NCBI GenBank assembly: GCA_963750165.1
Contig: CAVVPN010000004.1
Location: 1,120,001 to 1,184,000, forward strand
DNA from: an uncultured Gemmataceae bacterium
GTDB lineage: Bacteria > Planctomycetota > Planctomycetia > Gemmatales > Gemmataceae
Direction: 5' to 3'
DNA length: 64,000 bases
Shown: positions 59,431 to 64,000 of the stretch, piece by piece
Numbering within the stretch: the stretch's first letter is position 1
Layout: each line of letters begins with the position of its first letter
Translations under genes and position numbers: made by a program
Notes under the pieces: model-generated
Database searches by the model: none
What the model was told of the DNA's origin: nothing
The model's input: the letters and a program-made list of their open reading frames with translations, nothing else

Positions 59431-59814
59431 GATATCGCAAGTTCCGACAGGCCGCAATTTTCTGATGTCCGGAAGCAATGTCGCGTCACCCAGGCCATCT
59501 TGCGACCAAACTTCCAACCCGGCAAGCAGACCGCTGCGCTCGAACACAAATACCCCAAATAGCTCACCGCCAGCGGCCCGCCATTCGTAGTCGGCCAAAA
59601 TGCTGATGGCATTTCCGCGAGCGGGAACAACACCTTCGATCGCGAAGTCGATGCTGGCACAACCGCAGTAGCAGCGGGAGGCGATGCGTGCTTGATCAAG
59701 CTGGGGCAGGTAACGCGACGCCTGCGCACTGCCATGCTGCAACAACCATCGTACGAGTGTCACTTCGGCAACAGTCAGCGGCCGGTCCTCCGGAATTGCT
59801 GTCGTAGTCGTCAT
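59389..59814 (-). CDS. Cassette hypothetical protein (reads into attC)
   Basis: RPLT..E, C.CGCASIDF, L..LEVWS. Confidence 0.75.
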   Translation of the reverse strand: MTTTTAIPEDRPLTVAEVTLVRWLLQHGSAQASRYLPQLDQARIASRCYCGCASIDFAIEGVVPARGNAISILADYEWRAAGGELFGVFVFERSGLLAGLEVWSQDGLGDATLLPDIRKLRPVGTCDIAEPNVAPDCGGTT

Positions 59815-59901
59815 GCACCCTCGCCGCCGAACGACTCAGCTCCCACGAAAATGTATTTCTGGGACTGTGTCCACCGAGGGGACCGTCGTGGGTGGTCCTG
59901 C

Positions 59902-61149
59902 TCAGGCCGCCGGTTCCGCCACGGTCACCTCATAGCCCATTCTCTGCAGCCGCCGCACCAGCCTCTCCTTCAGCCGGTCCTTGTCTGCCGTCCGGTAATA
60001 GTCCGGCCCCTCTTCCTGGTACGGCCGGCGCTTGCTCAGTAGTGTGTAGGCCATCCGCAAGATCCGGTGCCCCACCGCCAGGCAGGCCCGCTTGTCCCCG
60101 CGGCGTGCCTTGATCCGATGGTACGTCGCCCGCAGACTGCTCTCCTTGGTGTTCGCCGCTCCCCGCGCCGCCTCCACCAGCGCCTGCCGCAGCCAGCGGT
60201 TGCCCTTGCGCGTCTTGCCGCTCTTCTGCTTGCCAGCGCTCTCGTGGTTGCCTGGACACATCCCCGCCCACGACGCCAACTGCCCCTCCGATTGAAAGCG
60301 GCTCATGTCCAGGCCGACCTCCGCCACGATCACCTGCGCCGTCCGCTGGTTCACCCCGGGAATCTGGTCCAACAGCGCTAGCGCCTGCGCGAACGGGAGG
60401 CACACCTCGGCGATCTTCGCATCCAAGCGGACGATGGCGTCGTCCAGGTCGCTCACCTTCTGTAATTGCTCCCGCAGCAACCAGCGCTGCGTCGCGCTCA
60501 TCACCCCGCGCAGCGCTTCCTCCAATTCCGGGATCTTCGCACGCAGCTGGCCCCGCGCCAGGTTGGCCAGTACGGCGGGGCTGTCCACGCCCTCGGCCAG
60601 GCTGCGTAACATGTCTCGGCCACTGGCTCCCAGTACGTCGCTGGCCACGCCGGCCAACTTGATGTTGCAGTTCTCCAGCAACTTCTGGATACGGTTGCTC
60701 TCGTCGGCGCGCTGGCGGATCACTTGCGTGCGGTAGCGCGTCAAGTCCCGCAGTTCCCGGATTTCCTTGGGGGGCACGAAACTACTGCGCAACAGGCCCA
60801 CACGCAACAGGGTGGCGAGCCACTCGGCATCCTTGACATCGGTCTTGCGTCCGGGCACGTTCTTGACGTGCTGGGCGTTGACCAGGACGACCTCAATGCC
60901 GGCCTGCTCCAGGATGTTGAACACCGGCTTCCAATACACGCCGGTGCTCTCGATGGCCACGTGCCGACAGTCCGCCTGCACCAACCACTGCGCCAACTCC
61001 TGCAAGGCGCTGGTCATGGTCCGAAAGACCCGGCGCTCGACGAGCGCATCGCCCGAGGCACCCGACTTCAAGAGGCAGGCGGTCAGGGTCTTCTTGTGGA
61101 CATCAATGCCGCAGCAAATGGTCAGCACGACAGGGAGCAGCGCGTCCAT
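59902..61149 (-). CDS. IS110-family DEDD recombinase/transposase
   Basis: GIDVHK, IESTGVYW, GRKTDVKDA, IPGV, HESAG (catalytic Ser) and GNRWLR motifs; frame intact. Confidence 0.95.
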   Translation of the reverse strand: MDALLPVVLTICCGIDVHKKTLTACLLKSGASGDALVERRVFRTMTSALQELAQWLVQADCRHVAIESTGVYWKPVFNILEQAGIEVVLVNAQHVKNVPGRKTDVKDAEWLATLLRVGLLRSSFVPPKEIRELRDLTRYRTQVIRQRADESNRIQKLLENCNIKLAGVASDVLGASGRDMLRSLAEGVDSPAVLANLARGQLRAKIPELEEALRGVMSATQRWLLREQLQKVSDLDDAIVRLDAKIAEVCLPFAQALALLDQIPGVNQRTAQVIVAEVGLDMSRFQSEGQLASWAGMCPGNHESAGKQKSGKTRKGNRWLRQALVEAARGAANTKESSLRATYHRIKARRGDKRACLAVGHRILRMAYTLLSKRRPYQEEGPDYYRTADKDRLKERLVRRLQRMGYEVTVAEPAA

Positions 61150-61151
61150 CG

Positions 61152-61330
61152 GAGTTCTCCAGACGCCCAGGGAGCATGCAGACGCCGGCGGTGGTGGAGT
61201 CTCCCACACGGGCATATGGGCGCTGCGCCCAAATCAGGGTGCCTCGCGGCGTCCGGGTCCAACTCTGCGTCGGGCACGATGCACCAGCTAAGTCACGACC
61301 ACAGCACGTCCCCAGACGCCCTCTATCCTA
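61152..61330 (-). ncRNA. Putative bridge RNA of the IS110 element (ends approximate)
   Basis: Four segments match target-left (8/9), target-right (12/13), donor-right (7/7) and donor-left (10/10), each including the CT core. Confidence 0.75.
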
Positions 61331-61719
61331 GCTCGCCTCCTTTTCATCGATCAGGGGGAAATTGGTTTCATGGAGAACTCTGCGGCGGGCCACTCGGCTC
61401 AATGCTATCCGATTGACCTCATATGGCCCGTCCGCAGCAGCACCTGGTTCGGTTTGTTTTTTCTCTTGGCCTCAATCTCTCTTTGCTGGACGCCGTCTGC
61501 GTTTCAGACTCCAACTCCGCTTCGGCCAGCGCTGACTCCAGTCTGACCTGCTGCTCCCCCAGAACCCAACCACTCACCGCCGCCCAACCTCTGAATCGCC
61601 AACTTGCTCACAACCCGGCACCCCTCCGGGCACGAACCCCAACGCTCCCCGAATGCGCCAAGCCAGCGCTGCCGCACGGGAGCACCCCTCACCCTGCCGA
61701 AGCGCCACCGCGGCCGGGG

Positions 61720-63009: not shown

Positions 63010-64000
63010 CTGAACTGTCGCACGCTTCCATGAACAGACGAACACCGATAGTGTCACGGGGCTGTCGCAGAAAGAGAGAGGGGTTCCTCCTAAGTTTGTG
63101 CATAGGTTCTCAAGCCATGCACTCGCCGGAAGGAGCCCCTCATGTGGCTGATGATAGCTTCTCTCCAGCCCATCGTCCAAGCCCTCGCCCCGGCCTTCAC
63201 CCTGCCCTCGTTCCACACCCACTGCCAACTCGTGCTCGGCTGGGTGATGTGCCTGGGCCAGCACCGCCTCTGTCGCGTCGCCGACACCGCCCAACCCCAA
63301 GACTTGCGGGACCATTCCCGGCGCCACGGCCTGGACACCACCTACAACTTCTTTGCGCGCTCCGCCTGGACCGTGACCGGGTTGGCCTACCACGTCGCCG
63401 TCCTCATCCTGACGCGCCTCCACCTGGGCGGCACCATCACGCTGTTGGTGGACGACACCCTGGCCCACAAGCGCGGCAAGCACGTCTGGGGCCTCGGCTG
63501 GTTCCGCGATGCCGTCGCCTCGACCCGCAAACGCACCGCCACGGCCGCGGGGCACAACTGGGTGGTCGTCGCCGTCGCCGTCTGCCTGCCCTTCGCGAAC
63601 GCCCCGATCCTGGCGTTGCCCTTGCTGGCCCGGTTGCACCGGCCCGGCCAGGCGCAGCCGTCCTGCCCACTGCTGGCGCGCGCGCTGCTCGCCGAAGTGC
63701 TGGCCTGGTTCCCCGGCCGGCGCTTTACCCTGGTGGCCGACGGCGCTTACGCGGCCCAAGCGCTGCTGGCGGACCTGGACGAGCGCGTGACCTTCGTCGG
63801 CCGGTTGCGCGGCGACGCGGCCGTGTACGACCCGCGTCTGCCTCAGGCCAAGCCCGGCCGGCGCGGCCGCAAGGCGCAGAAGGGGCCGCGTCTGCCCAAC
63901 CCCAAAGCAGCCGCCGCCAAGGCCGACCGTAAGCGCGTGGCCACCGGGGACTGGGTGTGGCAGGCGGTGACGGTGACCGTCTACGGGGAGCAGCGCGTCC
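63010..64000 (+). mobile_element. IS701-like IS, copy 2 (CDS from 63142; cut by the window end)
   Basis: Near-identical reverse complement of the right part of 34504-36017; preceded by ATAG (reverse complement of CTAT). Confidence 0.88.

What the first reader, a model, noticed from the sequence alone, without database searches (positions are those of the whole stretch)
59826..61453. IS110 element with a readable bridge RNA programmed against integron attC sites
Seen: an intact IS110-family recombinase sits inside a family-A attC, with junctions GACTCAG-CT-CCCACG (59833-) and TGGAGAA-CT-CTGCGGCGGGC (61371-). The ~230-bp non-coding end upstream of the CDS, read 5'->3' on the minus strand, contains four matches. 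(1) GACTTAGCT at 61294-61286 matches target-left plus core at 8/9. (2) GCCCGACGCAGAG at 61275-61263 is complementary to core plus target-right at 12/13. (3) GTGGGAG at 61207-61201 is complementary to core plus donor-right at 7/7. (4) TGGAGAACTC at 61161-61152 matches donor-left plus core at 10/10. Each pair is separated by a foldable stem (GGUGC-AUC-GUGCC; GGCGUCU...GGGCGUC). Established: IS110 elements use a non-coding bridge/seek RNA with target- and donor-binding loops, and attC-targeting IS1111 elements are known in Proteobacteria. Inference: this is a natural RNA-guided recombinase aimed at this host's own attC family.
Basis: partly seen in the sequence, partly recalled or inferred. Interest (0 to 1): 0.93.

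Follow-up and report, generated by a model that had tools for sequence, protein, structure and literature searches.

The report
attC-targeting IS110 element with bridge RNA
This is a mobile element whose own small RNA appears to steer it into one subfamily of integron recombination sites; both the RNA-guided mechanism and this kind of target are already known, though this version is wired somewhat differently.

Summary
The sequence facts hold. A 1,536-bp IS110-family element sits in an attC site, flanked by a CT (AG on its own strand) core. It has three near-identical copies in the genome, all at the same position of the same attC subfamily.

The attC array has 37 sites, next to an integron integrase 15 kb beyond the window.

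The 231-nt region upstream of the transposase gene matches a conserved two-loop RNA. A covariance model built from 44 homologues, excluding this element, scores it at 57.7 bits.

These are (1) right target, (2) left target and (3) the element's far end. Two bases after (2) read the element's own first two bases, like an IS621 "handshake" guide.

Two points fail:
- Guide (4) lies outside the conserved fold, overlaps the ribosome-binding site, and does not follow the element end in relatives at 89, 75, 74 and 71% identity.

The order of guides within each loop is that reported for IS1111 seekRNAs, not that of IS621, although the RNA lies upstream of the gene.

RNA-guided attC targeting is already published for IS1111 elements. 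No RNA data were available. I rate it a new member of a known kind, of moderate interest.

The parts
59842..61377 (-). IS110-family insertion sequence proper, 1,536 bp. One of the two flanking CT/AG cores (59840-59841, 61378-61379) belongs to it.
   Evidence: Three copies in the genome, at 100% identity over 1,537-1,538 bases. Identity ends at the same bases in all three. Empty sites read GCCGCAG-AG-CTnnGTC with a single AG.
59902..61149 (-). Transposase/recombinase gene, 415 aa, start ATG 61149-61147, stop 59904-59902.
   Evidence: Pfam PF01548 (E 4e-37) and PF02371 (E 6.5e-23). NCBIfam NF033542 'IS110 family RNA-guided transposase', 285.2 bits against a cut-off of 140. IS621 transposase 8wt6, E 2.3e-15, with the GID, IExTG, KTDxxDA and ES motifs aligned.
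61162..61320 (-). Predicted bridge RNA, including the outer stem 61320-61309 with 61173-61162. The covariance-model match is 61305-61179.
   Evidence: Model R1, built from 44 homologues without this element, scores 57.7 bits, E about 5e-13, over the full model. The next-best hit in the window scores 10.9 bits. On A1 the helices are 87% paired against 30-50% for slid controls, and 20 of 26 pairs show changes on both sides.
61286..61294 (-). It pairs with the transposase-sense strand of core plus right target.
   Evidence: 8/9 to this site, and 9/9 if rU:dG pairs count. In homologues, 3.69/7 cognate against 1.71/7 non-cognate, p 4e-10. L092 matches 7/7.
61273..61285 (-). Conserved distal hairpin of the target loop (GGUGC-AUC-GUGCC).
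   Evidence: Motif GGTGC..G.GCCCG found upstream of 67 of 84 homologous genes. Helix 3 is 98.7% paired.
61261..61269 (-). It is followed by UU, a handshake-like pair that reads the first two bases of the element.
   Evidence: 9/9 identity to the left junction (2 of 5,000 shuffles). Alignment columns match LT-5..-1 in 83-97% of 29 loci, and RD+1/+2 in 97% and 90%. L164 (89% aa) has AGGTG+AG+TT, which matches its own flank.
61201..61207 (-). It is identical to the last bases of the element's transposase-distal end plus core.
   Evidence: 7/7. An exact match of at least 7 nt downstream of the stop codon in 56 of 66 homologues, against 45 of 660 non-cognate pairings. Columns 137-140 identical to LD-5..-2 in 97-100%.
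61180..61254 (-). Donor loop: basal stem 61254-61247 with 61187-61180, 5' strand 61246-61231, distal hairpin about 61232-61209.
   Evidence: By alignment to homologues (helix 4 at 68% paired, 5 of 6 pairs with changes on both sides) and by reading the sequence.
61151..61161 (-). It is complementary to the element's first 9 bases, overlaps the Shine-Dalgarno GGAG (61160-61157), and starts one base after the outer stem.
   Evidence: Exact 9-mer in 5 of 5,000 shuffles. No counterpart longer than 6 nt in the 30 other IS species examined. Absent in L164, L007, L006 and L092.
61378..61458 (-). Left part of the interrupted attC (R'' box, L'' and L' arms), in cassette orientation.
   Evidence: nhmmer attC model hit at C4:1181375-1181458, model positions 5-88. 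Intact sister sites fold as attC hairpins, z -3.4 to -4.3.
59826..59841 (-). Right part of the interrupted attC: core, 7-nt spacer and R' box (GTTCGGC on the minus strand).
   Evidence: The same 16 bases follow ...GCAGAG in empty sites.

Best explanation
The element is an intact IS110-family insertion sequence. Its DEDD/serine recombinase is most likely directed by a bridge RNA of about 160 nt, encoded between the element's upstream end and the gene (window 61320-61162, minus strand).

Predicted RNA structure: an outer stem encloses two internal loops.

Target loop:
- The 5' strand (GACUUAG+CU) pairs with the transposase-sense strand of core plus right target.
- The 3' strand (CGCAG+AG) pairs with the opposite strand of left target plus core.
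- Two further bases (UU) match the element's own first two bases, as the IS621 handshake guide does after strand exchange.

Donor loop:
- The 3' strand (GUGGG+AG) matches the element's transposase-distal end plus core.
- No contiguous guide for the transposase-proximal end is evident in this family.

Target: the guides spell the foot of the L' arm and the spacer before the R' box of one attC subfamily of the host's chromosomal integron. Insertion is therefore site- and orientation-specific, and it splits the attC.

Shown here: the anatomy, the copy pattern, the conserved fold, and guide/flank covariation.

Inferred: transcription, RNA-protein binding, a circular intermediate, and the chemistry.
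For: Protein: Pfam, NCBIfam and IS621 homology.

Copies: 3 copies with the same junctions, and empty sites that restore one AG.

RNA family:
- R1, built without this element, scores 57.7 bits.
- Structure counts: 87% paired, 20 of 26 pairs compensatory, 0 of 500 shuffles as high.

Guides:
- g2, at least 7 nt exact in the expected place: 46/66 cognate against 29/660 non-cognate.
- g3: 56/66 against 45/660.
- g1: 3.69/7 against 1.71/7 over 25 IS species. At least 5/7 in 36% against 1.6%.
- Column-wise identity to LT, LD and RD+1/+2 of 83-100% in 29 loci.
- Natural retargeting: L164 (89% aa) changes g2 from CGCAG to AGGTG together with its flank.

Target choice: the exact left-target word is present in 10 of 72 attC-like sites, and these include all 3 occupied ones. 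Hypergeometric p is about 0.002, my own arithmetic.

Integron context:
- IntI at 426.5 bits against a cut-off of 265.
- 37 co-oriented attC sites.
- attC folds.

Mechanistic frame: read in passages of PMC11208160, PMC11208158 and PMC11187229.
Against: - No RNA evidence. No RNA run holds the stretch, and the contigs laid are fragments only.
- No sigma-70-like promoter in the linear form.
- The single-sequence MFE fold is not unusual, z -0.82.
- No Rfam family matches.
- g1 has 1-2 non-Watson-Crick positions against each of the three occupied sites.
- In homologues the g1 signal is noisy. L006 and L007 match poorly by eye. 8 of 37 loci were dropped from the g1 count because no core complement was in register.
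- 20 of 66 loci had no g2 match of at least 7 nt, and 10 of 66 had no g3 match.
- Only 37 of 66 loci could be given both boundaries.
- A guide for the element's proximal end was not found.
- The loci are related to one another, so the counts are not independent.
Confidence: 0.85

Rival explanations
1. One reading: (3) and (4) are the left and right donor guides of one loop, so the RNA carries four readable guides.
For: (4) is a perfect 9-nt complement of the element's first bases, and 11 nt against the inferred circle junction. It appeared in only 5 of 5,000 shuffles. Its format, 7 nt plus CU, is that of a canonical 5'-type guide.
Against: - (4) lies 3' of the outer stem, outside the fold conserved in 47 homologues.
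- The sequence between (3) and (4) contains the 3' strands of two helices, not a hairpin.
- None of the 30 other IS species has a complement of its end longer than 6 nt anywhere in the non-coding end.
- In L164 (89% aa) the end changed from TTCTCCA to TTCCGCA while the tail stayed TGGAGGATCT.
Confidence: 0.1
2. (4) is a translational control element. In transcripts that read in from the upstream cassette, the element's first bases (AGUUCUCCA) pair with the Shine-Dalgarno region and block transposase translation. Transcripts that start inside the element escape the block.
For: - (4) contains GGAG 7 nt before the ATG.
- The MFE fold pairs positions 1-8 with it.
- The element lies in the same orientation as the cassette ORFs, so read-through is plausible.
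- Masking of the ribosome-binding site by an end-proximal repeat is known in other IS families. This point is recalled and comes from no call.
Against: Not conserved in relatives. No transcript data. The MFE fold is not better than shuffles.
Confidence: 0.4
3. Insertion into attC is directed by protein recognition of the folded attC hairpin, and the RNA matches are incidental.
For: attC sites are strongly structured. The homologues L164 and L021 also sit at the foot of palindromes.
Against: - Only the attC subfamily with the exact guide word is occupied, 3 of 10 against 0 of 62.
- Homologues insert in unrelated, non-attC flanks that match their own guides.
Confidence: 0.04
4. The matches in the non-coding end are remnants of captured target DNA from imprecise excision, not guides.
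For: (2) matches the target over 12 of 13 bases.
Against: - The two target halves lie on opposite strands, separated by a conserved hairpin.
- The same scaffold carries different words in homologues.
- GCCCG is scaffold, not target.
Confidence: 0.02

Closest known systems
IS621 and its bridge RNA (Durrant et al. 2024, PMC11208160; Hiraizumi et al. 2024, PMC11208158; passages read)
   Same: - DEDD plus serine recombinase (8wt6, E 2.3e-15).
- RNA in the long non-coding end upstream of the gene.
- Two internal loops, each with a distal hairpin.
- The 5' strand ends in CU and the 3' strand in AG.
- A 7+2 guide on the 5' strand of the target loop.
- A 2-nt handshake position directly 3' of the 3'-strand target guide.
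- One donor half read by a long guide and the other barely at all.
   Different: - The guide placement is reversed relative to gene orientation. Here the 5' strand pairs with the transposase-sense strand on the right, and the 3' strand pairs with the other strand on the left. In the RNA's own frame, the end next to the RNA gene therefore corresponds to IS621's LD, not RD.
- The core reads AG on the gene strand.
- The recombinase is 415 aa, against a 328-residue IS621 chain.
- The long donor guide is on the 3' strand.
- No Rfam family matches, and the sequences are not alignable to IS621 by these tools.
IS1111-attC group (ISKpn4, ISPst6, ISPa25) and their seekRNAs (Siddiquee et al. 2024, PMC11187229, sections read; Post & Hall 2009 and Tetu & Holmes 2008 seen only as references)
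   Same: - Targets one end of attC sites in one orientation.
- The insertion point lies a few bases before the R' box. The printed ISKpn4 target has 6 nt between the mark and GTTAG; here 7 nt lie between core and GTTCGG.
- The segment complementary to the top strand lies 5' of the segment complementary to the bottom strand.
   Different: - The non-coding RNA region is upstream, not downstream, of the gene.
- The recombinase is 415 aa, not 330-350 aa.
- Subterminal repeats are short and asymmetric.
- The host is not a proteobacterium, judging by the nearest homologues (Isosphaera and Planctomycetaceae MAGs).
- The attC family is different.
ISEc21, an IS110-type element with an upstream seekRNA (PMC11187229, section 12 read)
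   Same: Upstream non-coding region that encodes the guide RNA. Natural retargeting between relatives through a few changed bases.
   Different: [quoted passage not shown] Here it is 5'.

Membership tests
IS110-family DEDD recombinase | DEDD_Tnp_IS110 (RuvC-like) domain plus Transposase_20 domain | tested here: met
   PF01548 E 4e-37 and PF02371 E 6.5e-23. NF033542 at 285.2 bits against a cut-off of 140.
IS110-family DEDD recombinase | Catalytic acidic residues and the conserved serine | tested here: met
   In the alignment to IS621 chain 8wt6, GID, IE(S/A)TG, KTDxxDA and ES are aligned. The residue roles come from PMC11208158.
IS110-family DEDD recombinase | No terminal inverted repeats; site-specific insertion with a 2-bp core and no longer duplication | tested here: met
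   Three copies and empty sites compared.
Bridge RNA (IS621 type) | Structured RNA in the long non-coding end, with two internal loops | tested here: met
   Upstream end 231 nt against 60 nt downstream. Helices supported by compensatory changes. R1 hit at 57.7 bits.
Bridge RNA (IS621 type) | Target loop pairs with both strands of the target, overlapping at the core | tested here: met
Bridge RNA (IS621 type) | Donor loop pairs with both donor halves | tested here: inconclusive
   The 3' strand reads the distal end. No column tracks RD+3..+10, and the conserved ACU before the distal hairpin does not change with RD+1.
Bridge RNA (IS621 type) | Handshake guide 3' of the 3'-strand target guide that reads the donor | tested here: met
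   Columns 66 and 67 match the element's first two bases in 97% and 90% of 29 loci. Definition taken.
Bridge RNA (IS621 type) | [quoted passage not shown] | tested here: not met
   The reverse holds here and across the homologues.
Bridge RNA (IS621 type) | The RNA is transcribed and bound by the recombinase | not testable with these tools
   No RNA holder listed.
IS1111 group | Long non-coding region downstream of the gene; recombinase 330-350 aa | tested here: not met
   The region is upstream and the protein is 415 aa. Criteria.
IS1111 group | Subterminal inverted repeats of 7-17 bp | tested here: inconclusive
   The homologues have GATGAAAATGG about 30 nt inside the upstream end, against CATTTTCA 6-8 nt inside the other end. 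In this element only TTTTC/GAAAA is shared.
Integron attC site | Array of co-oriented imperfect palindromes next to an integron integrase | tested here: met
   TIGR02249 at 426.5 bits (cut-off 265) at C4:1198898-1199845. 37 co-oriented hits at C4:1150099-1196498.
Integron attC site | Single-strand fold with paired R and L boxes, an unpaired spacer and a bulged base | tested here: met
   Three intact sites fold this way, z -4.24, -4.32 and -3.39.

The most novel reading that the evidence does not exclude
The long-recombinase IS110 relatives, including this element, would be a third wiring of the IS110/IS1111 guide-RNA system.

- The RNA gene is upstream of the recombinase gene, as in IS110 types.
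- Guide polarity is as in IS1111 seekRNAs.
- Consequently the whole gene module is inverted relative to the recombination frame of IS621, and the long donor guide sits on the 3' strand.

Within this group, one lineage (this element and L164) would have specialised on attC sites of chromosomal integrons outside Proteobacteria, independently of the IS1111-attC group. It would move between attC families by rewriting only the five-base left-target word.
Probability: 0.35. Interest if true: 0.55.

Novelty: new member of a known kind. Interest (0 to 1): 0.42.

Why it matters
It gives a clean natural example in which a bridge RNA can be read directly from sequence. The example has three occupied and seven unoccupied predicted targets in one genome, and a close relative retargeted by a five-base change.

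It also yields an alignment and covariance model for a large group that has no Rfam family. In that group, 555 of 606 matched stretches in reference genomes and 576 of 600 in metagenomes encode a relative.

The reversed guide polarity with an upstream RNA gene bears on how the RNA gene moved between element ends during the IS110/IS1111 split.

For integron biology, insertion between the L' arm and the R' box should disable that attC and lock the neighbouring cassettes together.

None of this changes the known mechanism.

Tried and rejected
- **Rfam.** No hit at gathering score in the window. Only three chance-level lncRNA hits around the element.
- **Single-sequence RNA fold.** z -0.82, uninformative.
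- **Promoter scan of 59700-61600.** No sigma-70-like site.
- **Sequencing runs.** No RNA holder listed. There were 5 small-share holders from 4 studies.
- **Laying four runs.** This gave only short contig fragments. Two were identical to parts of the gene and its start region in two soil runs. There were no joints and no cover of the target loop.
- **A contiguous guide for the element's proximal end.** Searched by longest common words and by column-by-position agreement. None was found. By eye, the 5' strand of the donor loop shares only ACU with the core plus the first base.
- **Earlier findings of this scan.** Nothing to show.
- **Tetu & Holmes 2008 (PMC2447020).** Not held, so the exact IS1111-attC insertion position rests on one table of a 2026 review.
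- **Plasmid protein search.** 4,426 records, best 54% identity, all annotated simply 'IS110 family transposase'. No named IS was obtained.
- **First Pfam call.** It failed on a wrong frame end. Corrected.
Full report
**What is in the sequence**

On the + strand the left junction reads GACTCAG (59833-59839), CT (59840-59841), CCCACG (59842-). The right junction reads TGGAGAA (61371-61377), CT (61378-61379), CTGCGGCGGG (61380-).

The only long ORF inside is on the minus strand. I take ATG 61149 as its start. Homologues align from residues 1-15 of that reading, and GGAG lies 7 nt upstream.

The 415-aa product has these matches:
- Pfam DEDD_Tnp_IS110 and Transposase_20.
- NCBIfam NF033542 'IS110 family RNA-guided transposase', 285 bits against a cut-off of 140.
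- IS621 transposase 8wt6, E 2.3e-15, with the acidic motifs and the ES serine aligned.

**Copies and target**

The genome (9.6 Mb, 12 contigs) gave 5 matches to the element. Three are full-length at 100% identity and two are distant partial relatives.

The three full copies have the same ends. In gene orientation each lies between ...GGCCCGCCGCAG-AG and AG-CTnnGTCGTTCGG. Empty sites carry a single AG.

The window copy and the C3 copy differ at one base. The third copy, outside the window, has a 1-bp deletion that truncates the protein at residue 216.

**The target is an attC**

- An integron integrase lies at C4:1198898-1199845 (TIGR02249, 426.5 bits, cut-off 265). That is 15 kb past the window end and divergent from the cassettes.
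- An nhmmer model built from eight sites finds 72 hits genome-wide. Of these, 37 form one co-oriented array at C4:1150099-1196498, and 29 of those 37 lie in the window.
- Three intact sites fold as DNA with paired R boxes, an unpaired spacer, L arms with one bulged base and a variable tip, z -3.4 to -4.3.

The element sits at the foot of the L' arm, 7 nt before the R' box. It has the same orientation as the cassette ORFs.

All four are present. Each is uncommon in 5,000 dinucleotide shuffles of the non-coding end:

| Match | Shuffles with a hit |
|---|---|
| (1), at most 1 mismatch | 117 |
| 7-mer of (2) | 107 |
| 13-mer of (2), at most 1 mismatch | 4 |
| (3) | 246 |
| (4) | 5 |

**Homologues**

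A scan of reference genomes returned 606 pattern matches, of which 555 encode relatives. The best 80 loci (41-75% identity) were kept. With the five loci from this genome's own scan that made 85 loci held, and tblastn with the window protein matched 84 of them.

Multi-copy elements gave independent boundaries.

Upstream of the gene, 67 of the 84 loci carry the motif GGTGC..G.GCCCG about 140 nt before the start. A second motif, GAGCACG, lies about 85 nt before the start.

Variable words flank both motifs:

It recurs as an exact match of at least 7 nt at the expected distance upstream in 46 of 66 loci. The figure is 29 of 660 when guides are swapped between loci.
It recurs just downstream of the stop codon in 56 of 66 loci, against 45 of 660.
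  - Both boundaries could be placed in 37 of 66 loci. I dropped 8 of those 37 because no core complement lay in register, leaving 29 loci in 25 IS species.
  - g1 is complementary to the 7 bases after the core on the far side at 3.69/7 cognate, against 1.71/7 in 796 non-cognate pairs.
  - At least 5/7 was reached in 36% against 1.6%. Mann-Whitney p is 4e-10.

Column by column in 29 loci:
- The five columns before the core in g2 equal LT-5..-1 in 83-97%.
- The two columns after the core equal the element's own first two bases in 97% and 90%.
- Four g3 columns equal LD-5..-2 in 97-100%.
- No column follows the element's bases +3 to +10.

The loci are related to each other, so these are not independent trials.

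**Fold**

RNAalifold on 47 sequences predicted 20 pairs, 15 of them with compensatory changes.

I added the donor-loop basal stem by hand. The resulting 26-pair structure is 87% paired, against 30-50% when partners are slid. Twenty pairs change on both sides, and 0 of 500 shuffles reach any of the five measures.

A covariance model was built from 44 homologues, excluding this element, L006 and L007. It matches window 61305-61179 at 57.7 bits over its whole length. The next hit in the 64-kb window scores 10.9 bits.

In this element the parts are:

| Part | Window coordinates |
|---|---|
| Outer stem | 61320-61309 with 61173-61162 |
| Target-loop basal stem | 61300-61297 with 61259-61256 |
| g1 | 61294-61286 |
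| Target-loop distal hairpin | 61285-61273 |
| g2 | 61269-61263 |
| UU (handshake-like) | 61262-61261 |
| Donor-loop basal stem | 61254-61247 with 61187-61180 |
| g3 | 61207-61201 |

**Close relatives**

A metagenome scan returned 600 pattern matches, of which 576 encode relatives; 79 loci were kept.

- **L164** is 89% identical over residues 1-171.
  - It keeps g3 and nearly keeps g1 (GACTAAGCT).
  - Its g2 is AGGTG+AG+TT, and its left flank ends ...GCAGGTG-AG before TTCCGC.
  - That flank is the foot of a 16-17-bp hairpin with one bulged base. The same contig has an attC-model hit about 510-610 nt upstream of the insertion point (E 8.5e-9). A different attC family is therefore likely, though not proven.
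- **L092** (71%) matches its right flank with g1 at 7/7, and its left flank at 8/9.

**Guide (4)**

(4) starts one base after the outer stem and covers the Shine-Dalgarno GGAG.

- Among the 31 IS species examined, only this one has a complement of its own end longer than 6 nt anywhere in the non-coding end.
- In L164 the end changed (TTCTCCA to TTCCGCA) while the tail did not follow.
- L007, L006 and L092 also lack it.

I therefore do not count it as a guide of the family. It may mask the ribosome-binding site in read-through transcripts, or it may be a lineage-specific extra, or chance.

It is a direct repeat.

**Target choice**

Of the 72 attC-like sites, 7 empty sites and the 3 occupied ones carry the exact word CGCAG+AG. 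The most frequent other word is TGCTG+AG.

All three insertions fall within those ten sites. Hypergeometric p is about 0.002 (my arithmetic).

The right-target words of the occupied sites (CTGAGTC, CTATGTC, CTGGGTC) differ from the guide's CTAAGTC at one or two positions. Most of these differences become rU:dG pairs.

**Comparison with what is known**

[quoted passage not shown] Hiraizumi et al. place two handshake bases directly 3' of the right-target guide. These bases pair with the last bases of the left donor after exchange.

At the RNA level this family is the same:
- The 5' strand ends in CU.
- The 3' strand ends in AG.
- The handshake bases follow the 3' guide.

Relative to the gene, however, the strands and sides are swapped. 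The end next to the RNA gene therefore behaves as IS621's LD.

Siddiquee et al. report that in IS1111 elements the segment complementary to the top strand is 5' of the one complementary to the bottom strand. They report the opposite order for ISEc21, and a 2026 review table repeats this.

This family has the IS1111 order but an upstream RNA region and a 415-aa recombinase. I did not find this combination described in what I read. My reading was limited to text passages, without figures or supplements, so this is a lead and not a claim of priority.

RNA-guided targeting of attC itself is published. ISKpn4 and ISPst6 target one end of attC sites, and their seekRNAs carry the matches.

Three literature searches were run:
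- IS110/attC/seekRNA: 71 papers, 15 listed.
- IS1111-attC terms: 232 papers, 12 listed.
- Bridge RNA plus integron: 8 papers.

Judging from titles and abstract starts only, none listed an upstream-RNA IS110-type element in attC sites.

**Verdict**

This is a real, intact element. Three of the four proposed guides are supported by covariation, and one plus a stem are rejected. The mechanism is inferred by homology and is not shown for this element. It is a new member of a known kind, with a possibly undescribed wiring.

Noticed in passing
window 30099-62640 and beyond, to G000:C4:1196498; intI at C4:1198898-1199845: Large chromosomal integron: 37 co-oriented attC-like sites over about 46 kb, 29 of them in the window, with small minus-strand cassette ORFs. 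A full integron integrase lies just past the window. Further attC clusters without a nearby integrase hit lie on C3, C11 and C12.
   Followed up: partly
G000:C4:1190279-1190728 (outside the window): A second, partial integron-integrase match inside the cassette array. It covers model positions 1-148 only, at 175 bits, below the cut-off. It is a duplicated or broken intI fragment.
   Followed up: no
G000:C4:1186330-1187866 (outside the window): The third copy of the element has a 1-bp deletion at element position 822 and further differences. Its recombinase frame stops at residue 216. This is either a decaying copy or an assembly error.
   Followed up: partly
window 61338-61349 and 59848-59855; homologues L008, L016, L021, L051, L063: Conserved inverted repeat between the upstream end (GATGAAAATGG, about 30 nt in) and the other end (CATTTTCA, 6-8 nt in). 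The variants seem to change together: GAGAATC with GATTCAC in one clade, and three A's with three T's in L006. It may be a subterminal repeat or an extra RNA-DNA contact.
   Followed up: partly
L004 = G000:C3:525951-529912: A diverged relative in the same genome (53% aa). Its upstream region matches the RNA model at 63.8 bits but carries different guide words.
   Followed up: no
L066, L085, L054, L079: A subclade in which the core is not AG. Both junctions and both guides share ACACC, so the core cannot be placed from sequence alone. L012 and L034 use AC, and L048 uses AA.
   Followed up: no
window 63142-64000 (+): An open-ended ORF of 286 aa that runs off the window. It lies beside the array and may belong to another mobile element. 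It was not searched.
   Followed up: no
L041 and L042 (one contig, CAWBJU010000015.1): Two copies of one homologous element lie about 2.9 kb apart on the same contig. Both are in targets ending TTTATATG-AG / GCAACGAAT.
   Followed up: no
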